42,624 nt of DNA from Escherichia phage vB_Eco_Maverick. Shown in pieces: positions 1 to 42,624 of the stretch. Numbering within the stretch: position 1 is the stretch's first letter; each line of letters begins with the position of its first letter. The position numbers and the translations under genes are program-made. Below the pieces are notes generated by a model. It searched no databases, was not told the origin of the DNA, and saw only the letters and a program-made list of their open reading frames with translations. The DNA lies in the sequence record NC_073077.1, one strand, 5' to 3'.

Positions 1-127
1 GGGGCGGGACAAAGCGGGACAGCACCCAGTCCCCGCCAGTGCTGCCGCGGTTTTCAGCCGATCGGGACAAGCGGGACAAAGCCCAGTCTTTCAGACTAGA
101 CGGGGGTCAACGGCCCCCCTCGTCTGA
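1..127. repeat. terminal exact repeat; bases 1-127 are identical to 42498-42624 (assembly overlap of a circular or terminally redundant genome)
   Basis: Direct comparison of the first and last 127 nt of the window shows identity; 127 nt is also a common assembler k-mer length. Confidence 0.85.
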
Positions 128-200: not shown

Positions 201-2843
201 ATGGCAGATCAAGCAGCAGGCATCACGCTGAAGGCTGATGTTGCACAAATCAGAACGGCAAATACTGTGCTGGACTCCTTCGCACAGAAATCCGAGAACA
301 CAGAAAACAAGGTTAAGAAATTAAACGACACCCTCGGCAAATCAAAAAAGGTGACGAGTGACGCCGCGGGCGGAATGGAGAAGCTGGCGACTGAATCGCA
401 GCGCGCTGCCGATGGCATGACGAAACAGGAGCGACTTGCCAACAGGTTAGGCATGTCGACCAAAAACCTGGGCTTTGCCTCGCGTAACGCCGCATTCCAG
501 TTACAGGATATCGCAGTTACGCTTGAGATGGGGATGCCAGTACACCGCGTTATGCTTCAGCAGTTACCGCAGTTAACTGGGGCGTTCGGCGGACTGGGTA
601 ACACGCTGCGTTATGTTGCGGGATTCCTCGGCCCAGTAGGGATCGGCCTTGCCGCCGTAACGGCAACGTTAGGCGTGGGCGTGGCAATTACGTCCCGCGC
701 AGAGAACCAGGTCGCCGCGCTTAACAAGACGCTGGCGCTGTCAGGTAACATTTCCGGCCTCACTGCAAACCAGATCCTGGTGTTATCCGAGAACGCCGAG
801 CGCATGGGCGGATCATTCCGCAAGACGCGTGACACAATCCAGGCGCTGGCGGCGGCGGGTGTGAAAGCGGGTGGTGACTTCGGCGCATTGGCTAAGGTAG
901 TTAATGACTTTGCGAAGGTGTCCAGCCAGCCGATCGAGGATGTGGTGGCGGCGGTGGCGAAGCTGTCAACCGACCCCGTTGGCGGACTGCGTGCGCTGGC
1001 GGATAAGTATCACGTCGTAAACGAAGCGCAGATCCAGCAGGTGCAGTCACTAGTGACGGCTGGTCGCGAAACCGAAGCGGTGGCGCTGGCTAACAAAACA
1101 GCCGCAGCGTCGTTTACCACTATGACCAATGAGATCAAGTCCAACATGGGTACGCTTGAGCGGTCGATGAACGTCGTTACATCGGCAGCTAAATCTATGT
1201 GGGATGCCATCCTGGATGTCGGGCGCGCGCAGTCCTCGAATGAGTCAGAGATGAAAGCGCGTGAATCATTGCAGCGACTGACCACGGCTTACTATGCCGA
1301 GATGAAAGCGGTAAACGCTGCCGGTGGGGTGATGACCGAAGCGCAGAAAGCGCGTATTAACATGCTTTACAGCGAACTGGTAGCCCAGGAAAAAGTAGTG
1401 GCGTCGCTCACCCTGCGCAACCGTGCAGAGCGAGACAACGCAAGTGCCGCTGACGAAGCAGCAAAGGCGAACGAAGAGGCAAACCGCACCGCCCGCGACC
1501 GCGCCGCGTTTGAGAAGGAGTACGCAACCAACGCGAAGAGGCGCGCCGACGAGATCGCCCGCCTCAATTTGCTTAATAAGCGCGGCGTGATTGACGAGAA
1601 AGAGCTTGCCGAGGCGGTGAAGCAGGTCAACGAGCGGTACAAAGACCCCGCCCCGAAGAAGGCCGCCGCTGTTCGAGTCGATGCCGGGCTGAAAATGCTG
1701 GAAGTAGCACGGAGCGAACTGGCCCAGCTTCGAGAATCCGGCAAGCAGATCGAAGCCAACGCATCGACGCAGACCCGCACGCAACGCGCGCAGGCGGCCC
1801 TAAACAAGCTGATCGCGGATAATGAGCAGTTAATCGCAGCAAGCAAAGAAAGAGCACTAACGGCAGCAGAAAAGCAGCAGATGGTCGAATTCGGACGCGT
1901 GAAGGAAGTACGCGAGCAGATCGTCGAAGAAGCCAAATTGCTGGACGCGAAAGAGAAGCAGGTCAAGGCGCACGCGCAGATCGACGCCTTCGTTAAGAAC
2001 CAGAACGCCGAGCTAAAAGCCACCGCGGCGGGCTATGCGCTTTCCACTCGCGAAGCGGCTAACCTGCGCGAAGAATTACAGCTGATTGACCGCCTTAAGC
2101 GCGTTGGTGCTAACGATACCGATATTGACCTGGCGGTGTCTAAGCTGCGCGAAGTGCAGGAAGCACAGACCGGTGCTAACGCCTCGCTATGGGATGGCTT
2201 CAGCCGCGGGCTTAAGGATAGCGTGGATGAAATGGGTAACGGCTACACGCAGATGACGTCACTCACAAAATTCACGTTCGGCGCTATGCAGGACACGATG
2301 AACGAGTTTTTCGAGACTGGCAAGCTGAACGCAAAGGATATGGTTAAGTCCATCCTGAGCGAATTAATCAAGCTGGCTACCTCGCAGGCATTCAAGTCCA
2401 TCGTTAGCGCTTTCGGTGGCGACGGCGGCAAAAACGGATTGTTCGGCGCTATCTTCTCTGGCCTAACTAAGAATGCGGACGGAGGAGCGTACGCAGGGGG
2501 CAATCTCGCGGCCTATTCGGGGCAAGTGGTAAGCCAGCCCACCTTTTTCAGTTACGGCGTCCAGGCGTTCGCAAAGGGCGCGGGATTGATGGGGGAGGCC
2601 GGACCCGAGGCCATCATGCCACTGAAGCGCGGCCCGGACGGCAAACTGGGCGTTGCCGCTGCCGGTGTAGGCGGGGGGATGATTGTAACGACCAACGTTA
2701 ACATGGGGACCGGTAAGACGGATACCAGTGTTAGCGGACCAGACCCGCGCACCGCGCAGGCGTTCGGGAAGCAAATCACCGAGTCGGTCAAGGCCGAGAT
2801 CGTGAAGGCGACGAAACCGGGTGGTGTACTTTACAAACGATGA
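201..2843 (+). CDS. tail tape measure protein
   Basis: 880-aa ORF, Ala/Gln/Lys/Glu-rich with long predicted coiled coils and a Gly-rich C-terminus; lies between tail chaperone G/G-T and M/L/K/I/J-like genes; AAGGGGA Shine-Dalgarno before ATG 201. Confidence 0.8.
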   Translation: MADQAAGITLKADVAQIRTANTVLDSFAQKSENTENKVKKLNDTLGKSKKVTSDAAGGMEKLATESQRAADGMTKQERLANRLGMSTKNLGFASRNAAFQLQDIAVTLEMGMPVHRVMLQQLPQLTGAFGGLGNTLRYVAGFLGPVGIGLAAVTATLGVGVAITSRAENQVAALNKTLALSGNISGLTANQILVLSENAERMGGSFRKTRDTIQALAAAGVKAGGDFGALAKVVNDFAKVSSQPIEDVVAAVAKLSTDPVGGLRALADKYHVVNEAQIQQVQSLVTAGRETEAVALANKTAAASFTTMTNEIKSNMGTLERSMNVVTSAAKSMWDAILDVGRAQSSNESEMKARESLQRLTTAYYAEMKAVNAAGGVMTEAQKARINMLYSELVAQEKVVASLTLRNRAERDNASAADEAAKANEEANRTARDRAAFEKEYATNAKRRADEIARLNLLNKRGVIDEKELAEAVKQVNERYKDPAPKKAAAVRVDAGLKMLEVARSELAQLRESGKQIEANASTQTRTQRAQAALNKLIADNEQLIAASKERALTAAEKQQMVEFGRVKEVREQIVEEAKLLDAKEKQVKAHAQIDAFVKNQNAELKATAAGYALSTREAANLREELQLIDRLKRVGANDTDIDLAVSKLREVQEAQTGANASLWDGFSRGLKDSVDEMGNGYTQMTSLTKFTFGAMQDTMNEFFETGKLNAKDMVKSILSELIKLATSQAFKSIVSAFGGDGGKNGLFGAIFSGLTKNADGGAYAGGNLAAYSGQVVSQPTFFSYGVQAFAKGAGLMGEAGPEAIMPLKRGPDGKLGVAAAGVGGGMIVTTNVNMGTGKTDTSVSGPDPRTAQAFGKQITESVKAEIVKATKPGGVLYKR

Positions 2844-5614: not shown

Positions 5615-8600
5615 CGATTATCTACGACGTCACTGGGCATAAAGGCGGCGGCGGCAAACAGCACACCCCGCAGGAAACGCCGGATAGCCTGCATTCCCTG
5701 GCTAAAATTCGCATCTTGCTTGCGCTAGGGGAAGGGGAATTCGAAAGTATTACCAGCGACAGCGAATTACGGCAGCGTGTATATCTGGACGGCACGCCGA
5801 TCCAGAACGCCGACCTGTCGGAAAACTTCCCCGGCGCGCGCGTGGAGTTCCGCCCAGGCACACAGCACCAGGACGTGATCCACGGATTTTCAGCGGTGGA
5901 AAGTGAGCAATCCGTAGGCGTAAAACTGGAAAACGGCACGCCGTGGGTGCGCCAGATTAACGACACCAGTCTTGACGCCGTGCGCATTCGAATCGGCATT
6001 CCGGCCCTGTACACCAACGAAGACAACGGCGACCTGGTGGGCGGGCGCATCGACTATAAGATAGTTGTGTATACGGATAACGCCGACCCGCGTGAGTTCA
6101 GATTCGCCGCCGTTGGTAAAACAATGTCGCTATATGAGCGCGACCACCGCATCGAATTACCTCCGAACGTTAACACCGGCTGGCGCGTGGAGGTGCACCG
6201 CATAACGGCAGACTCCACATCGGCGAAAGTGGTTAATGATATCCGGGTGCAGTCCATCACTGAGATTATTGACGCCCGCCTGCGTTACCCGCTAACCGCG
6301 CTGTTGTTTGTGGAGTTCGACGCCAAAGCGTTCCAGAACATCCCGCGCGTGTCCATTAAGTGCAAAGGTCGCAAAGTTCTAATACCGAACAACTACGACC
6401 CGATCAATCATACCTATTCCGGGGACTGGGACGGCACGTTTAAACGCGCATGGACGGATAACCCTGCGTGGCACTGGTACGATATTTGTATTACTGAGCG
6501 CTTCGGCCTCGGTCGGCGTATCAAACCGCAAATGCTAAACCGATACGCGCTCTACCAGATTGCGCAGCGCTGCGATCAGTTGGTCAGCGACGGCAACGGT
6601 GGTCGAGAAATCCGCTTTAAGAATGATATGTACATTCAGTCACAGACGGATGCCTGGACCGTGCTTAAGGATTTAGCCGCTATCTTTGCCGGTATGACCT
6701 GGTGGGGAAATCAGATGTTGAATATCGTCAGTGACCAGCCGGTCGCAGCGGTATCGCACACCATCACCAACGCCTCGGTCATTGATGGTCGATTCGACTA
6801 CGCGTCCGGCAGCCAGAAAACTCGATATTCCACATTCGCGGTAGCATACGGCAACCCGAAGAACCACTATGAAGATGCCATTGCTACGGGGCAGCGTGTC
6901 GAACTGGTACGCCGCCATAAGATTAACCGTCTGGACATCACGGCGATCGGCTGTACGCGTGAATCTGAAGCGCAACGCCGCGGGCACTGGGCGCTAATCT
7001 CCAACCAGCTTGACCAGCAAGTTAGCTTTAAGGTTGGCATGGAGGGACTTTTCTTTATTCCGGGTAGCGTAGTCGCGATCGCGGATACAAACATTTCTGG
7101 CGGCTTCGAGACTCGCGGCGGTCGCCTGTTGTCGGATCCTGGCACGCGGACGGTGCTGAACACAGACAGCGAAATCACGTTCCGCCCTGGCGATAAATTC
7201 CTGGTACGCACCGATAGCGGTAATGTGGAGACTCGCGAGATCGCCAGCGTCAACGGCAACAAGGTTACGCTAAAAACCGCACTGGATGCCGACCCGATTC
7301 CGGACCAGCCGTTTTGCGTCGATGGCAACGATATCCAGTTGCAGAAGTTCCGCATCACCGACCTGGAATATGACGACTCTACCAGCACTTTTTCAGTGCG
7401 CGGGATTGAGTACAACGATAGTAAATATGATGCCGTTGATAATGGCGCTCGCCTTGATCCGGGCATCTTTACTCAAGTGCCTGACGGCGTAATGAAGGGG
7501 CCGGAGTCCGTGACCATCACCCCGTCGCAGATTTCATCGCAAGGCCAGCTAATCACCAACGTGGATATTGTATTCCCTCCGGTGAAGGACGCCGTGGTGT
7601 ATGAAATCCAGTGGCGGCGTACCAGCTTGCAGAATATGGAAATCCAGTGGGGTAACGACTGGGTTAACATCCCACGTACGGCGTCGAACGGCGCGCACAT
7701 CCCTAACGTGTTCTCAGGTAACTACCAAGCACGCGTCCGCGCAATCGGTATGGGCGAGATTTCATCCCCGTGGGTGTCGTCTGCCATCACGCCGATAGAA
7801 GGTCGTCTCGGCGGGCTTAACGCGCCTATCATCACCAACGCGATTTCTGGCCTCCACCAAATTTTGTGGAAGTGGAACCACAACAACGCCGCGACGGATA
7901 TTTCGTACACCGAGCTTGAAGTGCGCAAGACCGGTGAAACGGAATGGAAATTTCTTACCAACGTCCCATACCCAGGGTCAGATTATGCGCAAACGTCTCT
8001 GGAGTTCGGGATCTATCAGCAGTTGCGCGCCCGTGTAGCGGATAAAATCGGCAACCTATCGGACTGGTCCGCACCGTTTGAAGGCCAGGTGAGTGACAAA
8101 GTTGACGAGTACATGAAGGGGCTTGATGACGAGTTCTTGACTTCCGAGGATGGTAAACACTTCCAGGAAGCTATTAACACGATCCCGCAAGGCATTTATG
8201 AGTCAATGCTCACCGACGCCCAGCAGCTATTCAACGCCCGCGCCGAGTACAAAGGGATTTATGCGGAAATCAAGGTGGCGTATAACGTGGCGGCAGACGC
8301 CAACAAGGCGGTAGCACAACTGGAGACGTTGATCGGCACGCGACTTGAAGACGCCGAAGCGGCGATCCACACGTTGCAGACGGCGCAGAGTACGCAAGAG
8401 CAGGCCTTCGCCCAGTATCAGCAGACTGTTGCCGCTAAGTTTTCGGAACAGGAAGCCGCCATACAGCAGGTACAAACGGCAACTGCAGACGTCGCGGGCG
8501 CACTGGCGGAGTATAAGACCCAGGTCGCGGCACAGTTCGGTCAGCAGTCCGCCGCTATCGAGCAGAAGATGACGTCTTCGTTTAACCACTCCGGTGGTAG

Positions 8601-23553: not shown

Positions 23554-25818
23554 ATGAGCTTGATTAAATTCGCTGTAACACGACCCGCTAAAAAAGGCGA
23601 AAAAGCCAGGGCGGAAAACTTCCAGATGACTACCGAAGAGTTTTTCGAATTTATCAATGATGCGAAAGAAATCTCCTCGGTGCATATCAACAAAACGGAA
23701 GATAAAGCGGAGTATGCGCGCCGCAAGCGTAAGGCTGATGGGATTGTGGCTTATACCAGTGACGGATTACGCCGCAAGACCAGTGCGGTGGATCGCTCGA
23801 TCCTGTTCTTCGATATTGACCGTACCGACACCCGCACCCTGCGCCGCTGCCGTAAGGCGTTCATCGACGCGGGACTGGAACATGTATTTCACACCACAAC
23901 CGGCGATCGCCACCCGCTGAAAGGTGGCACGCGTTGCGCTCGTTTCCTGGTGCTCACTGACAAGCCTGTACCGGCTGAAGACCTGGGCCGCGTCCAGTAT
24001 GCACTATTACACCAACTGGGCCTGTCAGATGTGGACTTCGACGATTGCACGAAAGACACAAACCGCCTTATGTACCTGCCTCACCAGCAATCGGTTGTTA
24101 AGTGTCACTACGGCAAACGTGCCCGCGTCCGTCGTCTGCTGCGCCTGGCGGATAAGCTGGGAGTGGAAAAAGAGGAAGTACGCCGCGAACTAACCCAGGG
24201 CGATGACGGCGTGGCGGACGGCATTCTGGATTGGTGCTTCCAGGCCGGATTCGAACCGCTGTCGTCCGGTCGTGGTTATGAAGTGCCATGCCCGAACGAA
24301 CATCTGCACAGCGGCGAAGGGTCGACGGCTATCATGGTCAAGGATGGCGAGATCCGTTTCAAGTGTATGCACACCGGCAACGAGTGTTGCTCGGAACTGA
24401 ACAGACACCAGCACCTGGCGCTACGTCTTATCGGGATCCCGGACCACCTGAACGTCGAACCGCACAACATGTCACGTAAGCAAATAGCCGCCATCCTCCC
24501 AGGTCTGGACGACGAGGAAGTGGAATCGTGCTATGAACATATCGTTGATGCGGTTGGCGACGGCGACGAGTACGGCGGATGTACGGACGCAGACCTGGAC
24601 AACGAGCCGGTTGCACTGTTCAGTAAACACGACCCGATCATCGAGGGGTTGATTAACTTCAAATCGACCTGGTATATGGCGGGCGAGTCGAACATCGGTA
24701 AATCGTTCTACGTGCTGGGCCAAATGGGTGCTGTTGCCGCGGGTATTCCGTTCGGTGGTGCGAAGGTCGTCCAGTCTCATTGCTTCTATTTCGACGCGGA
24801 AGGTGGCGAAGCCTCCAACCAGCGTAAGGAAGCATTGCAGATTAAATATGAGCACGACCTGGACAAGCTGCACATTATCGATCTGCAATCACGCGGCTGG
24901 GATATCACCAGCAAATCCGGCTTGCGTGAAGTTATCAGCTTCATCAACCGCACCGCTAACGGCGAGCCGGTTGGCCTGGTGGCGTTCGACTCACTCAACC
25001 AGACTGTTGCGCTGCGGTCCGCCGATGCTAAACCGTTCGACGAGAACAACGCCAGCGATATGGGCGAAGTGGTCAAAGCGCTGAAGGCCATTGCGGAAAA
25101 TACAGGCGGCAGTGCGGGCGTCATCCACCACCCGGCGAAAGGTGCAAACGGCAGCAGATCCCCCCGCGGGTCCGGCGCGCTGCATGGTGCTGTTGATTCT
25201 GCGTTCTTCCTGGAACAGCCGGACGACAACCAGCCCGGACAACTGAACCTGTATCACGAGAAGGCACGTAACGGCATCAAGCAAGCGCCGCGCGGATTCG
25301 TCCTGCTCAAGTGCAAGGTTAAGGTGGATCTCCGCAAGTCCGAGGCGTTCGAAGCCCACCAGTCCACCAGCACCGGGCCGGACTTCGGTGACGTCGTTGC
25401 CGGTTGGGACGTCAAGCCGATTGCATCCACGCCTCGCGACGAGACTCTTTACCTCGTACCTGTCGCCCTGGCACCGTTCGCTATCGAACAGGCGAAGGCA
25501 GCGGGCAAGGCCGCAGTTAAGGAAGAGAACACCGCCGGACCGCGCACCGAAAAAGAAAAGGTACTTTACGCGGCCCTGGAAAAACTGATGGAAGATAACC
25601 CGGACCATACCGGATTCAGCAAATCGGCAATTGTCCGCCAGGCTGGGCTTGCGAAAGGTGGCACATCGACGAAGGCAATTGACGATATGGTCGAGCGCGG
25701 CGTGCTAGGTTTTTATACAGACCCACACACCGGGGCCATCTATGGGTCGTCGAATATCGTCATCAAAACGAATATACCCATCACGCTTTCGGCGACCGAC
25801 GACGACCTGAAAGATTAA
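23554..25818 (+). CDS. DNA primase-helicase (primase-polymerase-like N-terminus, RecA/DnaB-type ATPase, C-terminal DNA-binding region)
   Basis: N-terminal acidic motif FFDIDRTD and a Cys/His cluster (CPNEHLH...C..H); Walker A GESNIGKSFYVLG and Walker B LVAFDSLNQ; C-terminal winged-helix-like segment FSKSAIVRQAGLAKGG. Confidence 0.75.
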   Translation: MSLIKFAVTRPAKKGEKARAENFQMTTEEFFEFINDAKEISSVHINKTEDKAEYARRKRKADGIVAYTSDGLRRKTSAVDRSILFFDIDRTDTRTLRRCRKAFIDAGLEHVFHTTTGDRHPLKGGTRCARFLVLTDKPVPAEDLGRVQYALLHQLGLSDVDFDDCTKDTNRLMYLPHQQSVVKCHYGKRARVRRLLRLADKLGVEKEEVRRELTQGDDGVADGILDWCFQAGFEPLSSGRGYEVPCPNEHLHSGEGSTAIMVKDGEIRFKCMHTGNECCSELNRHQHLALRLIGIPDHLNVEPHNMSRKQIAAILPGLDDEEVESCYEHIVDAVGDGDEYGGCTDADLDNEPVALFSKHDPIIEGLINFKSTWYMAGESNIGKSFYVLGQMGAVAAGIPFGGAKVVQSHCFYFDAEGGEASNQRKEALQIKYEHDLDKLHIIDLQSRGWDITSKSGLREVISFINRTANGEPVGLVAFDSLNQTVALRSADAKPFDENNASDMGEVVKALKAIAENTGGSAGVIHHPAKGANGSRSPRGSGALHGAVDSAFFLEQPDDNQPGQLNLYHEKARNGIKQAPRGFVLLKCKVKVDLRKSEAFEAHQSTSTGPDFGDVVAGWDVKPIASTPRDETLYLVPVALAPFAIEQAKAAGKAAVKEENTAGPRTEKEKVLYAALEKLMEDNPDHTGFSKSAIVRQAGLAKGGTSTKAIDDMVERGVLGFYTDPHTGAIYGSSNIVIKTNIPITLSATDDDLKD

Positions 25819-25928: not shown

Positions 25929-25978
25929 GTGTAGTGTAAATATAATGAATAGTTATGCAGTTTTATTGCATAAAGTAG

Positions 25979-26128
25979 GCGGGACAGAAAGCGGGACAAA
26001 CAGGGGGCGGGACAAAGCGGGACAGCACCCCCGTCCCGCCCCGGATGACGCGGCTTCCAGAGGAGCGGGACAGCGGGACAGCACCCCAGTCTTTCAGACT
26101 AGACGGGGGTCAACGGCCCCCCTCGTCT
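25979..26128. repeat. iteron cluster: six direct GCGGGACA octamers plus one inverted copy, ending in a 28-nt GC hairpin (internal copy)
   Basis: GCGGGACA at 25979, 25991, 26007, 26017, 26065, 26073; inverted GTCCCGC at 26033; hairpin agacgggggtcaacggcccccctcgtct at 26101-26128; TGCATAAA box at 25967. Confidence 0.85.
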
Positions 26129-26295
26129 GAGACTGAATAAAATCCGGGGATTGCAAAATACACGGCAGCATGATGCGAAGTGCGGTCGTCGATGAACTAG
26201 GCAACCAATGCGGGTTGTATTATGCTGAGTGAAAAATGCAGTTTTCAGCCACAGCTGATATCGATCAACTTTTTCATGCGCGTGATTAATATTGG

Positions 26296-39775: not shown

Positions 39776-40369
39776 GTGGCTGAAGTCTACTCATTCGCCG
39801 CCACTATTGCTACGTGGGTGGATAAGACGAAGGAGAACAACGATAAGGCGGTGCGGGCGTACGGGATGCAAATACTCGGACGCCTTATTGAGATCTCCCC
39901 GGTGGGCGATCCTCGCCGGTGGAAGATTAACAAGGCTTATGCGATGGCCCGCCAGCACGCGAACAAGGTGAACGCCGCACAGCGCCGCAAGAATGGTGGC
40001 AAACTGAAGCGCGGGCAGAAGAAGCACGCCAGTGTGCTCATCTCATTTAAAACTAAAAACGGCAACGTCACGTTCCGCCAGCGTGGCTGGGCCGCGAAAA
40101 ATTACACCGGCGGACGCTTCCGGGGAAACTGGCAGGTTACGTTCGACCGCCCGGCTGTCGGCGCTATTGACCGCGTGGACAAGGCCGGAACGGCAACATT
40201 AGCCGCAGGGCGTGAAGTGCTGGCGCATTACGATTCTGGTGAATACGTGTCGATCTGGTTTACTAACAATGTGCCGTATGCCCAGCGACTGGAATATGGC
40301 TGGAGTAAACAAGCGCCCGCGGGGATTGTTCGCGTCGTAGCGGCAGAAATCAATTCGAAGGTGAAATAA
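39776..40369 (+). CDS. tail completion / neck protein
   Basis: 197-aa ORF, GTG start with AAGGGG Shine-Dalgarno; position in the connector cluster. Confidence 0.45.
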   Translation: MAEVYSFAATIATWVDKTKENNDKAVRAYGMQILGRLIEISPVGDPRRWKINKAYAMARQHANKVNAAQRRKNGGKLKRGQKKHASVLISFKTKNGNVTFRQRGWAAKNYTGGRFRGNWQVTFDRPAVGAIDRVDKAGTATLAAGREVLAHYDSGEYVSIWFTNNVPYAQRLEYGWSKQAPAGIVRVVAAEINSKVK

Positions 40370-40791
40370 TGAGCAATACTCTAATCCGCAAGGCGCTTAA
40401 CAGCGTTGTCGAAGAGCTATCGGTTAGCCTGAACACTAGCGCGCGCCCGATAAAGGTTAACGGGGAGAACGTGGGCGGCGACCACGCAAACGGCAGCGGT
40501 GTCTACCTGGAACCATATCTGCTTCCGGCCCCGACCCAGTTTGTGGGCTTCCAGCAGAAGGGCCGGATCTATTCAGGCGTGTATCAGGTCGCCGTGGTAT
40601 TTCCTGCGGGCACGGGCACACAGTATGCGAGCGAACTGGCTGACGCCATCGCGACGTCTGACAAGTGGCAGGCCGTAAGACTTACCGGTGCTGCGTTCCA
40701 GCTTCAGGACTCGCCATACACCAGTCCGGTGATCGAGGATGTTGATCGTGCCCGCATCGTGGTCACAGTCCCCTACACCTGTTGCGCCTGA
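40369..40791 (+). CDS. tail terminator / tail tube-head joining protein
   Basis: 140-aa ORF immediately upstream of the major tail gene. Confidence 0.45.
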   Translation: MSNTLIRKALNSVVEELSVSLNTSARPIKVNGENVGGDHANGSGVYLEPYLLPAPTQFVGFQQKGRIYSGVYQVAVVFPAGTGTQYASELADAIATSDKWQAVRLTGAAFQLQDSPYTSPVIEDVDRARIVVTVPYTCCA

Positions 40792-40851: not shown

Positions 40852-41577
40852 ATGGGTTATCAACTTCCCAACGGGTCCAGCGTCCAGATCGGGTCCGTAT
40901 TAGGCAGCGGCATCGCGGTTACGGCAGCTACCAACGCCGCGGCGTCGATCTCCGACCTTACGCAAGGTTGCGTAATTACCTGTGCGGCTTCGCATGGTCT
41001 GGTTGTTGGCGACGTTGTTATGTTCACTAAAACCCCGTGGGTCCGAGCGCTTAACCGCGCATTCATCGTGGGTAAAGTGGACACCAACGACGTTACGCTG
41101 GCGCGCTTCGACACCGAAGACGTCACAAAATACCCGACCGGCGCTTTCAGCGTAGGCACTCCAGGCGAAGTGGTGAAGGTGTCGGGCTTTATCGACTTCC
41201 CTTTCATTACTAACGTTGCCGTGTCTGGTGGCGACCAGCAGACGACTACCTTCCAGCCGTTGCAGGTGAACACCGCAATCAGTCTGAACACCACGAAAAA
41301 CCCGTTGGTACAGACTTACACTTTCACCCACGACGAAGAAGACCCGATCCGCCCAATCCTGGAAGACCTGGACGACACACAGAAAACCACTGTGATCAAG
41401 TTCACTAACCCAGCGGCAGCAAGCGGCAAAGGTGAGATTCGTATTTACCCAGCTAAGGTATCTTTCCAGAAGATTCCGTCCGCTGAAGTAAACAACGTGG
41501 AAACGGTACAATCCACTCTGACCATGCAGTCTGATATGGTTATCTACCGTAAGGATCTGGTCGAGGCATTGTCTTGA
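40852..41577 (+). CDS. major tail protein
   Basis: 241-aa beta-rich ORF with AGGAG Shine-Dalgarno, directly upstream of the G/G-T chaperone pair and followed by a terminator. Confidence 0.7.
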   Translation: MGYQLPNGSSVQIGSVLGSGIAVTAATNAAASISDLTQGCVITCAASHGLVVGDVVMFTKTPWVRALNRAFIVGKVDTNDVTLARFDTEDVTKYPTGAFSVGTPGEVVKVSGFIDFPFITNVAVSGGDQQTTTFQPLQVNTAISLNTTKNPLVQTYTFTHDEEDPIRPILEDLDDTQKTTVIKFTNPAAASGKGEIRIYPAKVSFQKIPSAEVNNVETVQSTLTMQSDMVIYRKDLVEALS

Positions 41578-41607: not shown

Positions 41608-41630
41608 GGGGCCAGCACGGCCCCTTTTTT
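41608..41630 (+). terminator. rho-independent terminator after the major tail gene
   Basis: ggggcc-agcac-ggcccc stem followed by tttttt. Confidence 0.75.
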
Positions 41631-41646
41631 ATTGGAGAATACTACA

Positions 41647-42009
41647 ATGGCTAAAGCACCACTCTTCACACTTGACCCTAAGCCAACCTTTAAGCTGCCG
41701 ATTGAGATCCCGCGCCCTGGTGAGAACGAACCAGGCAAGATGACGTTTACCGTACGCCACCGCCCGATCGACGAGTTTTCGCAGACCATGCAGGACACCG
41801 AACGCAAGCTGTCGGAATATGACGACAATGACCCGGACGGCTTTAACGTTATGGTCGAGGCCATCATGCACGTCGCAGAAGGCTGGAATCTGCCGGACGA
41901 ATTTAACGCGGAGAACGTCCGCCGCCTGGTGGTCAACTATCCACGCGCGTTCGGTGTGTTCCACACGTCGTACTATCTCGAACTGATGGGGTTGCGTGAA
42001 AAAAACTAA
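41647..42009 (+). CDS. tail assembly chaperone G
   Basis: 120-aa acidic ORF between major tail and tape-measure genes; GGAG Shine-Dalgarno; ends ...REKN-stop with slippery A_AAA_AAC at its 3' end. Confidence 0.7.
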   Translation: MAKAPLFTLDPKPTFKLPIEIPRPGENEPGKMTFTVRHRPIDEFSQTMQDTERKLSEYDDNDPDGFNVMVEAIMHVAEGWNLPDEFNAENVRRLVVNYPRAFGVFHTSYYLELMGLREKN

Positions 42010-42323
42010 TTGAGGCGGCGCGACGCTTTTATGGCCCGCCGCCACCCTCCGAAGATTTAGCCGCAAGTTTATGGGGCGCGGCCCCCGAAGATGTTTGTCC
42101 ACCTGTTGCGCTGTGGCCCGACAACGCGAAGGTAGTCGCAGTCTTCACAGATTGCTCCACGCAATGGCGCACCGGATTTGGTGGCGCATACGGCATCGAC
42201 TACGGCGTGCTGGAGTGGTTATTTAAGATGCACGGTATCGAAAACGAACAGCGCGCGTTTAAAGATATCAAGCTAATGGAACGAATAGCGCTTGATGAGA
42301 TGGCGCAGCAGAACCACGCATAA
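41647..42323 (+). CDS. tail assembly chaperone G-T fusion, made by -1 programmed frameshift at 42000-42006
   Basis: After a -1 slip on A_AAA_AAC the reading frame stays open for about 105 codons (…LIEAARRFYGPPPPSEDLAASLWG…) to the TAA at 42321-42323; this frame has no in-frame start of its own. Confidence 0.6.
42000..42006 (+). other. -1 ribosomal frameshift slippery heptamer A_AAA_AAC
   Basis: Heptamer sits in the zero frame of gene G three codons before its stop; X_XXY_YYZ pattern. Confidence 0.6.
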
Positions 42324-42327
42324 TGAA

Positions 42328-42621
42328 GCGGGACGTCCCGCTTTGTCCCGCCCTGTAAAACCGCATATCTAATCACTTTCATTGCATAAACTCAAAGCGG
42401 GACAGGCGGGACGTCCCGTTTTGTCCCACCCACGAAATGTGCATACCTATTCGAATTTCGTGCATAAAACAAGCGGGACAGAAAGCGGGACAGACAAGGG
42501 GCGGGACAAAGCGGGACAGCACCCAGTCCCCGCCAGTGCTGCCGCGGTTTTCAGCCGATCGGGACAAGCGGGACAAAGCCCAGTCTTTCAGACTAGACGG
42601 GGGTCAACGGCCCCCCTCGTC
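42328..42621. repeat. iteron cluster: GCGGGACGTCCCGC palindromes, about seven direct GCGGGACA octamers, two TGCATAAA boxes, ending in the same 28-nt hairpin (terminal copy, continues into bases 1-200)
   Basis: Palindrome at 42328-42341 and 42406-42418; GCGGGACA at 42397, 42473, 42485, 42501, 42511, 42568; TGCATAAA at 42383 and 42461; hairpin at 42594-42621. Confidence 0.85.
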
Positions 42622-42624
42622 TGA

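What the first reader, a model, noticed from the sequence alone, without database searches (positions are those of the whole stretch)
41998..42323. Programmed -1 frameshift (A_AAA_AAC) producing a G-T tail chaperone fusion
Gene G ends three codons after a textbook slippery heptamer, and the -1 frame stays open for about 105 codons with no start codon or RBS of its own, ending at TAA 42321-42323. This is the conserved lambda G/G-T mechanism in long-tailed phages, and the ORF track misses the T part because it has no ATG.
Basis: partly seen in the sequence, partly recalled or inferred. Interest (0 to 1): 0.5.

Follow-up and report, generated by a model that had tools for sequence, protein, structure and literature searches.

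The report
Tail chaperone G-T frameshift site
This is the standard programmed -1 ribosomal frameshift that long-tailed phages use to make a little of an extended tail-assembly chaperone (G-T) from the gene just before the tape-measure gene; it is real and deeply conserved, but ordinary.

Summary
The window is a Dhillonvirus genome, 99.9% identical to Escherichia phage vB_Eco_CS16. Gene G (41647-42009, 120 aa, Pfam Phage_TAC_4) ends with A_AAA_AAC (42000-42006). The -1 frame runs from there for 105 codons to TAA 42321-42323 and encodes a full DUF1799 domain. Its first ATG/GTG/TTG is GTG 42207.

The pair lies between the tail tube gene and the tape-measure gene. The T frame is under purifying selection as protein: 214 synonymous versus 62 non-synonymous codon differences, against 23/256 and 33/253 in the other frames. 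An X_XXA_AAC heptamer followed directly by a stop is kept in relatives down to about 30% identity. AAAAAAC occurs in T1, HK639, Tlsvirus, Aeromonas and Pseudomonas phages; GGGAAAC occurs in Ralstonia and Vibrio phages.

Two corrections:
- The stop follows the heptamer directly, not three codons later.
- The canonical junction is REKN|LIEAARR, not REKK|LIE.

G and T show no sequence homology to lambda G/T, so this is the same mechanism in a different family. A hairpin 7 nt downstream (42014-42043) is a plausible stimulator. No record examined annotates the join. Verdict: correct call of a known mechanism, low interest.

The parts
40852..41577 (+). Major tail (tube) protein gene, upstream neighbour
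   Evidence: Pfam Phage_tail_3, E 7.5e-32. Annotated as major tail protein in the CS16, HK578 and SECphi18 records.
41608..41634 (+). Terminator-like GC hairpin plus T run between the tube gene and G
   Evidence: Consensus scan. Annotated as a terminator in the CS16 record. Function inferred: attenuation of expression downstream of the abundant tube protein gene.
41647..42009 (+). Gene G: tail assembly (tape-measure) chaperone, 120 aa, 14.0 kDa, zero-frame product
   Evidence: Pfam Phage_TAC_4, E 1.4e-23, full length. PHROG 569. Third-position-dominated variation, 10/6/76 by codon position. GGAG ribosome-binding site 10 nt upstream.
42000..42006 (+). Slippery heptamer A_AAA_AAC, in phase with G
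   Evidence: Sequence. The only + strand copy in the window. Invariant in 22 Dhillonvirus loci. Conserved as AAAAAAC or GGGAAAC in distant relatives.
42007..42009 (+). G stop codon TAA, directly after the heptamer (possible 'shifty stop')
   Evidence: A stop (TAA, TGA or TAG) directly follows the heptamer in every relative that carries AAAAAAC or GGGAAAC. In lambda, five sense codons intervene.
42014..42043 (+). Candidate stimulatory hairpin: GGCGGCG 42014-20 pairs with CGCCGCC 42037-43, plus an inner 3-4 bp helix; starts 7 nt after the heptamer
   Evidence: Fold energy -17.1 kcal/mol. Synonymous-site variation is suppressed, 2/13 versus 66/91, p 1.2e-4. A stem in the same register occurs in T1, Tlsvirus and Warwickvirus, with 4 of 7 pairs compensatory. 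Not significant against synonymous recodings in the window itself, z -1.3.
42006..42323 (+). T segment: -1 frame, 105 codons plus TAA. Read only after the shift. The G-T fusion is join(41647..42006,42006..42323), 225 aa, 25.7 kDa
   Evidence: Pfam DUF1799, E 2.8e-21. PHROG 680; PHROG 17368 spans the whole fusion, residues 1-223 on profile positions 1-212 of 213. Synonymous 214 versus non-synonymous 62 in this frame only. No ATG/GTG/TTG before 42207.
201..2843 (+). Tape-measure protein gene, the downstream neighbour across the circular junction (374 nt after the T stop)
   Evidence: Pfam TMP_2, E 2.3e-43, and Tape_meas_lam_C. Window 1-127 duplicates 42498-42624. Contiguous in the CS16 record.

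Best explanation
A programmed -1 ribosomal frameshift at A_AAA_AAC (42000-42006), on the last two sense codons of tail-chaperone gene G.

Most ribosomes terminate at TAA 42007 and make G (120 aa). A small fraction slip back one base, with tRNA-Lys moving from AAA to AAA and tRNA-Asn from AAC to AAA. These ribosomes re-read C42006 as the first base of CTA and continue for 105 codons. The product is the 225-aa G-T fusion, with junction ...REKN-LIEAARR....

By analogy with lambda, G and the G part of G-T coat the tape-measure protein. The T domain (DUF1799) recruits the tail tube protein, and neither protein ends up in the virion. The low slip rate sets the G:G-T ratio. The adjacent stop codon and a hairpin 7 nt downstream probably tune the rate.

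What is shown: the anatomy, that the T frame is translated, the conservation of the site, and the families and synteny. What is inferred: the slip itself, its efficiency, the roles of stop and hairpin, and the protein functions.
For: - Anatomy is exact and in phase.
- G is Phage_TAC_4 and T is DUF1799. PHROG 17368, a 213-position profile, covers the conceptual fusion end to end.
- Synteny runs tail terminator, tube, G, T, tape measure, minor tail (records).
- The T frame is protein-coding. Variable columns are 18/8/64 by codon position. Synonymous/non-synonymous counts are 214/62, against 23/256 and 33/253 in the other frames. The 67 codons before any start codon give 12/3/44.
- The heptamer plus immediate stop is invariant in 22 Dhillonvirus loci. 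It is kept in relatives of 30-56% identity, with X_XXA_AAC preserved while XXX changes from AAA to GGG. All of them have a -1 ORF of 101-107 codons.
- tblastn of the fusion finds 1161 phage records. In 54 of the 60 rows listed, G and T appear as two adjacent pieces, that is in different frames; the other six matched only one of the two parts.
- Among 1122 T-domain cluster representatives, the best 150 are all 38-150 aa. None is an in-frame G-T fusion.
- One homologue record (Serratia phage Smarc4) already annotates a joined 'pre-tape measure frameshift protein'.
- Literature: AAAAAAC adjacent to the chaperone stop in Acinetobacter phage Loki (PMC5313236). AAAAAAC/GGGAAAC in phiCbK-like phages (PMC3556154). 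[quoted passage not shown] Lambda mechanism and a 30:1 ratio (PMC5009743).
Against: - There is no experimental evidence for this phage or, as far as I found, for this protein family. No fusion protein or junction peptide has been reported.
- In E. coli, A_AAA_AAC is much less shift-prone than A_AAA_AAG (PMC5009743), so efficiency may be low. A low rate is what this system needs.
- The hairpin is not significantly more stable than synonymous recodings in the window itself (z -1.3). It is absent in several lineages of the family.
- The T1-like set shows no synonymous-site suppression.
- None of the seven Dhillonvirus records examined annotates a join.
Confidence: 0.9

Rival explanations
1. Transcriptional slippage. 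RNA polymerase stutters on the run of seven A (41999-42005) and adds one A to a fraction of the mRNAs. Standard translation of those mRNAs then gives G-T with junction REKK-LIEAARR.
For: A homopolymeric A7 run is present. The product would have the same length and the same T domain.
Against: Homologues in Ralstonia and Vibrio phages carry GGGAAAC at the same place, and others carry A_AAG-type sites. None of these has a long homopolymer. What is conserved is the X_XXA_AAC tandem-slippage pattern, not run length. From general knowledge, productive slippage by bacterial RNA polymerase usually needs about 9 or more A/T. This was not tested here.
Confidence: 0.04
2. T is translated as a separate small protein from its own start, and no fusion is made. 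Candidate starts are the non-canonical ATT 42009, as annotated in HK578, or GTG 42207, as annotated in CS16 (38 aa).
For: Public records annotate it this way. HK578 gp16 starts at the last base of the G stop. CS16 has a 117-nt CDS. SECphi18 and McMelon have fragments. Gene callers find stand-alone T-domain ORFs of 38-150 aa in many relatives.
Against: No ATG/GTG/TTG precedes 42207, yet the DUF1799 match starts at about codon 24 and selection on the protein extends back to the junction. There is no Shine-Dalgarno sequence before ATT 42009; the upstream sequence is GAAAAAAAC. T-frame protein conservation (KKLxxA...Y.P.P) starts exactly at the slip site in all lineages. The conserved heptamer and the frame offset would be left unexplained.
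Confidence: 0.03
3. Artefact or decay. Either the frame break is a sequencing indel in the A run or a pseudogenised fusion gene, or the -1 ORF is open by chance.
For: Homopolymer runs are prone to indel errors. An open run of 105 codons occurs at about 1.3% of positions in shuffled sequence.
Against: The same A-run length and frame offset are seen in 22 independently sequenced Dhillonvirus genomes, in T1 and in many other genera. There is strong purifying selection in the T frame and a significant Pfam domain.
Confidence: 0.01

Closest known systems
Phage lambda G / G-T (Levin, Hendrix & Casjens 1993; Xu, Hendrix & Duda 2004, 2013, 2014; summarised in PMC5009743)
   Same: Two overlapping ORFs lie between the major tail gene and the tape-measure gene. 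There is a -1 shift on an X_XXA_AAZ heptamer near the end of G. T has no start of its own. The expected output is a low-abundance fusion.
   Different: There is no detectable sequence relationship. Lambda G is Phage_TAC_2 and lambda T is Phage_tail_T, whereas here they are Phage_TAC_4 and DUF1799; hhalign probability is below 1%. Lambda uses G_GGA_AAG with five sense codons before the stop. Here the heptamer is A_AAA_AAC and abuts the stop. Here 374 nt of repeat-rich spacer separate T from the tape-measure gene. In lambda, T and H overlap.
Tape-measure chaperones of T1-like phages (Drexlerviridae: T1, Tlsvirus, Warwickvirus; Citrobacter phage Stevie, PMC4319613) and HK639
   Same: True homologues, about 38-40% identity over G and T by tblastn. 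They carry the same AAAAAAC-plus-stop site. In T1, Tlsvirus and Warwickvirus there is a hairpin in the same register 7 nt downstream. The frameshift is recognised in the literature for this group.
   Different: The T stop and the tape-measure start are only about 40 nt apart in these phages. Sequences are diverged. Webervirus relatives have replaced the heptamer with an A_AAA_G-type site.
Acinetobacter phage Loki gp12/gp13 and the phiCbK-like Caulobacter phages
   Same: [quoted passage not shown] AAAAAAC in the phiCbK-like phages, with GGGAAAC in Colossus (PMC3556154). This is the same alternation of motifs seen here among relatives.
   Different: Homology of those chaperones to this G/T pair was not tested here.
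IS1 insA-insB' frameshift on the A6C motif; dnaX A_AAA_AAG (general knowledge; dnaX also in PMC5009743)
   Same: -1 frameshifting in E. coli on an A-rich heptamer. IS1 uses the identical A_AAA_AAC at low efficiency (my recollection, not checked here).
   Different: Unrelated genes and purposes. dnaX uses the far shiftier AAG A-site codon plus an upstream Shine-Dalgarno-like element. No conserved upstream element of that kind is seen here; the GGG before the site varies at its third position.

Membership tests
Conserved tail-assembly-chaperone frameshift of long-tailed phages (Xu, Hendrix & Duda 2004 class) | Two overlapping ORFs located between the major tail protein gene and the tape-measure gene | tested here: met
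   Tube gene 40852-41577 (Phage_tail_3), G 41647-42009, T frame 42006-42323, tape measure 201-2843 across the circular junction (CS16 record).
Conserved tail-assembly-chaperone frameshift of long-tailed phages (Xu, Hendrix & Duda 2004 class) | A slippery sequence in the correct phase inside the overlap of the two frames | tested here: met
   A_AAA_AAC at 42000-42006. The overlap of the two open frames is only 42000-42009, because of the -1-frame TGA at 41997-9 and the G stop at 42007-9.
Conserved tail-assembly-chaperone frameshift of long-tailed phages (Xu, Hendrix & Duda 2004 class) | The downstream ORF is a real coding sequence but lacks its own initiation signals | tested here: met
   Synonymous 214 versus non-synonymous 62 in the T frame only. 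Codon-position variation of 12/3/44 in the 67 codons before the first ATG/GTG/TTG.
Conserved tail-assembly-chaperone frameshift of long-tailed phages (Xu, Hendrix & Duda 2004 class) | The frame break and shift site are conserved among divergent relatives | tested here: met
   22 Dhillonvirus loci and 17 more distant loci. Two-piece tblastn matches in 54 of the 60 listed rows, out of 1161 matching records. No in-frame fusion among the top 150 T-domain representatives.
Conserved tail-assembly-chaperone frameshift of long-tailed phages (Xu, Hendrix & Duda 2004 class) | A fusion protein is actually made at a low fixed ratio to G; both are needed for tail assembly and are absent from virions | not testable with these tools
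   Needs proteomics, reporter assays or genetics. Known for lambda only (PMC5009743).
Pfam PF08748 Phage_TAC_4 (tail assembly chaperone) | Score above the gathering threshold over the full profile | tested here: met
   83.9 bits against a cutoff of 21.1; residues 1-120 on profile positions 1-124 of 124.
Pfam PF08809 DUF1799 | Score above the gathering threshold over the full profile | tested here: met
   76 bits against a cutoff of 26; profile positions 1-80 of 80, on residues 25-101 of the -1 frame translation.
Lambda gpG (PF06894 Phage_TAC_2) / gpT (PF06223 Phage_tail_T) sequence families | Detectable sequence or profile similarity to lambda G and T | tested here: not met
   No Pfam hit to these families at E <= 0.1. 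hhalign of 14- and 15-member alignments against lambda G and T gives probabilities of 0.4% and 0.9%. Lambda proteins do hit their own families. A shared fold was not tested.
Frameshift sites with a 3' stimulatory RNA structure | A stable structure 5-9 nt after the slippery site, supported by covariation or synonymous-site constraint | tested here: inconclusive
   For: spacing of 7 nt, -17.1 kcal/mol. Synonymous variation 2/13 versus 66/91, p 1.2e-4. 4 of 7 pairs compensatory and 92.9% of cells paired, against 27-70% when slid. Against: z -1.3 versus synonymous recodings in the window. The 8 aligned sequences were chosen after seeing which lineages have the stem. The stem is absent in Pseudomonas/Braunvirinae, Serratia, Pectobacterium and Mingus. 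No suppression in the T1-like set.

The most novel reading that the evidence does not exclude
In the Phage_TAC_4/DUF1799 chaperone family, the shift signal may be a compact three-part cassette rather than a bare heptamer. The parts would be X_XXA_AAC, an obligatorily adjacent stop codon, and a two-tier hairpin exactly 7 nt downstream. Together they would raise and set the output of a heptamer that is intrinsically weak in E. coli. The stop would be kept by holding the first T codon as CTA/CTG. This differs from lambda, where five sense codons separate site and stop. If true, the G:G-T ratio in Dhillonvirus and T1-like phages would be tunable through the hairpin, and the adjacent stop would be a required element.
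Probability: 0.4. Interest if true: 0.3.

Novelty: already known. Interest (0 to 1): 0.12.

Why it matters
The main value is for annotation. None of the seven Dhillonvirus GenBank/RefSeq records examined (CS16, SECphi18, jat, UDS3lw, HK578, McMelon, plus T1 isolate 22 and others outside the genus) annotates the joined G-T product. Several instead carry spurious fragment ORFs, or a minus-strand ORF, over the T segment. The correct feature is join(41647..42006,42006..42323). Dhillonviruses are used as model and therapy-candidate coliphages, so a correct tail-assembly gene set is useful. Biologically this adds one more lineage to a well-established rule. The possible stop-plus-hairpin stimulator is a modest, testable refinement.

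Tried and rejected
- The search for homologous proteins with the conceptual fusion gave only 3 hits: two G-only and one T-only. It was uninformative, so I switched to tblastn on phage records and the exhaustive representative search.
I used T1 G alone instead.
- PDB sequence search of the fusion found no relative with a solved structure. NCBIfam gave no hit. Rfam gave nothing near the gathering score around the site, only weak miRNA-like hits on the palindromic repeats after T.
- An upstream Shine-Dalgarno-like stimulator, as in dnaX, was considered: GGGG at 41988-91. I rejected it because the Gly codon varies (GGG/GGA/GGC) among Dhillonviruses and nothing similar is present in T1 and the others.
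- The whole-region fold z-score for 41985-42090 is not significant, z -1.13.
- A first pass on T1-like synonymous variation was corrupted by an indel-bearing sequence. It was redone without that sequence and showed no suppression.
- Structure prediction and fold search were not run. Pfam membership was already decisive, and no solved structure for gpT was turned up here to compare against (only a sequence search with this window's own G-T fusion was run; that none exists is my recollection).

Full report
**What the window is.** The last 1.8 kb of the window matches 157 phage records. The best match is Escherichia phage vB_Eco_CS16 (genus Dhillonvirus) at 99.9%. The first 127 bases of the window repeat its last 127 bases exactly. 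The window is therefore a circularly closed assembly of 42,497 bp, and the gene after the finding is the ORF at 201-2843.

**Checking the observation.**
- G runs from ATG 41647 to TAA 42007-42009 (120 aa) and ends ...CGT GAA AAA AAC TAA.
- A_AAA_AAC lies at 42000-42006, in the phase needed for tandem -1 slippage.
- The -1 frame contains TGA at 41997-41999. It then stays open from 42000 to TAA 42321-42323, which is 105 codons after the re-read C42006. The two open frames therefore overlap only across the heptamer and the stop.
- The first ATG/GTG/TTG in the -1 frame is GTG 42207.
- AAAAAAC occurs once on the + strand of the whole genome. There are two copies on both strands, where shuffles give 7.9 +/- 2.6. 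An open run of 105 or more codons occurs at about 1.3% of positions in shuffled sequence.

The description is accurate apart from two details. First, the stop follows the heptamer directly rather than three codons later. Second, the junction peptide from canonical slippage is REKN|LIEAARR, because the A-site tRNA decodes the zero-frame AAC before slipping. REKK|LIE would need a slip before A-site decoding, or an extra A in the mRNA.

**What the two reading frames encode.**
- G is a full-length match to Pfam Phage_TAC_4 (E 1.4e-23).
- The -1 frame translation is a full-length match to DUF1799 (E 2.8e-21). The match covers residues 25-101, well upstream of GTG 42207.
- PHROG 17368, a 213-position tail-category profile, aligns to the conceptual fusion from residue 1 to 223.
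- The neighbours are a tail terminator (40369-40791), the tail tube protein (40852-41577, Phage_tail_3), then G and T, then the tape-measure protein (201-2843, TMP_2 and Tape_meas_lam_C), then a minor tail protein.

This is the canonical position of the chaperone pair.

**Is the T frame translated?** I compared 19 distinct Dhillonvirus sequences.
- Variable columns in the T segment fall 18/8/64 on codon positions 1/2/3 of the -1 frame.
- Codon differences from the window are 214 synonymous to 62 non-synonymous in that frame. In the other two frames they are 23/256 and 33/253.
- The 67 codons between the heptamer and the first possible start show the same pattern, 12/3/44.

So the part of T that has no ATG, GTG or TTG start of its own evolves as protein. 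Only ribosomes arriving from G can translate it.

**Conservation of the site.**
- All 22 Dhillonvirus loci examined carry GAAAAAAAC-TAA unchanged, while codons just upstream vary freely.
- Four IMG/VR relatives with 42-56% identity in G carry CG[CT] GAA AAA AAC followed by TAA or TGA, and a -1 ORF of 101-103 codons.
- tblastn of the fusion finds 1161 phage records. In 54 of the 60 rows listed, G and T are two adjacent pieces; the other six matched only one part.
- In thirteen records fetched from different genera, the end of G varies as follows:
  - AAAAAAC plus stop in T1, HK639, Aeromonas pAEv1818, Tlsvirus, Warwickvirus, Braunvirinae and a Pseudomonas phage.
  - GGGAAAC plus stop in Ralstonia and Vibrio phages.
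  - An A_AAG-type motif in Webervirus, Serratia, Pectobacterium and Klebsiella Mingus.
- The pattern X_XXA_AAC is kept while XXX changes. This is the signature of selection for tandem slippage rather than for the encoded amino acids or for a homopolymer.
- The T-frame protein alignment is collinear and conserved (KKLxxA....Y.P.P) from the very junction in all lineages.
- In the exhaustive search, 1122 cluster representatives match T. The best 150 are all 38-150 aa, and none is an in-frame G-T fusion. The frame break is thus maintained.
- One homologue record, Serratia phage Smarc4, annotates a joined 'pre-tape measure frameshift protein'.

**Possible stimulators.**

*The adjacent stop.* A stop (TAA, TGA or TAG) follows the heptamer with no intervening codon in every relative with AAAAAAC or GGGAAAC. 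In lambda, five sense codons intervene. Keeping the stop requires the first T codon to be CTA or CTG.

*A downstream hairpin.* Seven nucleotides after the heptamer, GGCGGCG (42014-20) can pair with CGCCGCC (42037-43) around a small inner helix, at -17.1 kcal/mol.

Evidence for the hairpin:
- Among Dhillonviruses, third-position variation is 2/13 in the first 13 T codons, against 66/91 in the rest (Fisher p 1.2e-4). It is 8/13 in the last 13 G codons before the site. No second ORF overlaps there to explain this.
- The same-register 7-bp stem exists in T1, Tlsvirus and Warwickvirus, and partly in Ralstonia and HK639.
- RNAalifold recovers it with 4 of 7 pairs changed on both sides.
- 92.9% of cells pair, against 27-70% when the partner is slid.
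- T1, Tlsvirus and the Vibrio phage are more stable than synonymous recodings, with z from -2.6 to -4.9.

Caveats:
- The window's own hairpin is not significant against recodings, z -1.3.
- I chose the eight aligned lineages after seeing which ones had the stem.
- Several lineages lack it.
- The T1-like set shows no synonymous suppression.

I rate the hairpin as a plausible lineage-specific enhancer, not an established part.

*An upstream element.* An upstream Shine-Dalgarno-like element is not conserved.

**Mechanism and rivals.** The best explanation is ribosomal -1 frameshifting that gives a 14.0-kDa G and a minor 25.7-kDa G-T. Protein roles are inferred from lambda: G coats the tape measure and T recruits the tube protein, at about 30:1 (PMC5009743). 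A_AAA_AAC is a weak site in E. coli compared with A_AAA_AAG (same review), which suits a low-output switch.

Three rivals were considered:
- Transcriptional slippage on the A7 run. This is disfavoured by the GGGAAAC and A_AAG homologues.
- Independent initiation of T. This is disfavoured by the lack of a start or ribosome-binding site, by the extent of the domain, and by selection reaching back to the junction.
- Sequencing error or chance. This is excluded by the comparative data.

**Comparison with what is known.** The mechanism and synteny are those of lambda G/G-T, but the proteins are not detectably homologous to lambda G or T. Lambda's proteins are Phage_TAC_2 and Phage_tail_T, and hhalign probabilities are below 1%. 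True homologues are the tape-measure chaperones of T1-like phages, for which the conserved frameshift is already noted (PMC4319613). The same motif abutting the stop has been described in Acinetobacter phage Loki (PMC5313236), and AAAAAAC/GGGAAAC in phiCbK-like phages (PMC3556154). A tail-gene frameshift was also noted for Edwardsiella phage eiAU (PMC3025963); CS16's annotation cites eiAU-group phages for its structural proteins. I found no paper describing the site for Dhillonvirus itself.

None of the six Dhillonvirus records inspected joins the two ORFs:
- HK578 annotates T from ATT.
- CS16 keeps only the last 38 codons.
- SECphi18 and McMelon carry fragments, and SECphi18 also carries a minus-strand ORF.

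**Verdict.** It is a textbook instance of a known, widespread recoding event in a known chaperone family. Novelty is confined to annotation and to a testable suggestion about the adjacent stop and hairpin. Interest is low.

Noticed in passing
window 1-127 and 42498-42624: The first 127 bases are an exact copy of the last 127. This looks like a circular-assembly overlap, and 127 is a common assembler k-mer size. The true genome length is 42,497 bp. Features at the window's end continue at position 128.
   Followed up: yes
window 42328-42624 continuing into 128-200, and window 25960-26140: The octamer GCGGGACA (and GCGGGACG) clusters at exactly two places in the genome. About 12 copies lie in the 374-nt spacer between the T stop and the tape-measure start. 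About 7 copies lie just after the helicase-primase gene (23554-25818). The two regions are copies of one module of about 175 nt, with 79% mean column identity across the 342-column alignment. Each copy begins with TGCATAAA and ends in an identical 53-nt tail with a GC hairpin (AGACGGGGG...CCCCCCTCGTCT). Relatives such as T1 and HK639 have only about 40 nt between T and the tape-measure gene. This may be a regulator-binding array or promoter module. Function unknown.
   Followed up: partly
window 42326-42346: A perfect palindrome, GCGGGAC/GTCCCGC, followed by TTTGT sits three bases after the T stop. The equivalent site is annotated as a rho-independent terminator in HK578. A terminator between the chaperone genes and the tape-measure gene is unusual for this module. 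A 63-nt direct repeat (42328-42390 and 42406-42468, 75% identity) and a 19-nt perfect inverted repeat (42335-53 and 42499-517) lie in the same spacer.
   Followed up: partly
window 41608-41634: A terminator-like hairpin, GGGGCC-AGCAC-GGCCCC plus T6, lies between the tail tube gene and G. It is annotated as a terminator in CS16. It probably attenuates read-through from the highly expressed tube gene.
   Followed up: partly
whole window: AAAAAAC is under-represented: 2 copies on both strands against 7.9 +/- 2.6 in dinucleotide shuffles, and every one of 100 shuffles had at least 2. This is consistent with avoidance of slippery runs outside the one functional site.
   Followed up: partly
L002 (SECphi18) 7228-7599; L038 (McMelon) 1572-1824; L001 (CS16) 5893-6009: Public annotations place small 'hypothetical protein' CDSs over the T segment, including one on the minus strand (window 42029-42196). 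These are most likely gene-caller artefacts caused by the unannotated frameshift.
   Followed up: partly
L028 (Webervirus VAC8) 680-692; L030, L033, L036: Some homologous chaperone genes have lost the heptamer. They carry GCA AAA GTT TAA, GAA AAG TCC TAA, CAA AAG TAA or CAA AAG CAC TAA instead. That suggests single-tRNA A_AAG/A_AAA-type slippage at the same position. The shift-site type turns over within one protein family.
   Followed up: no
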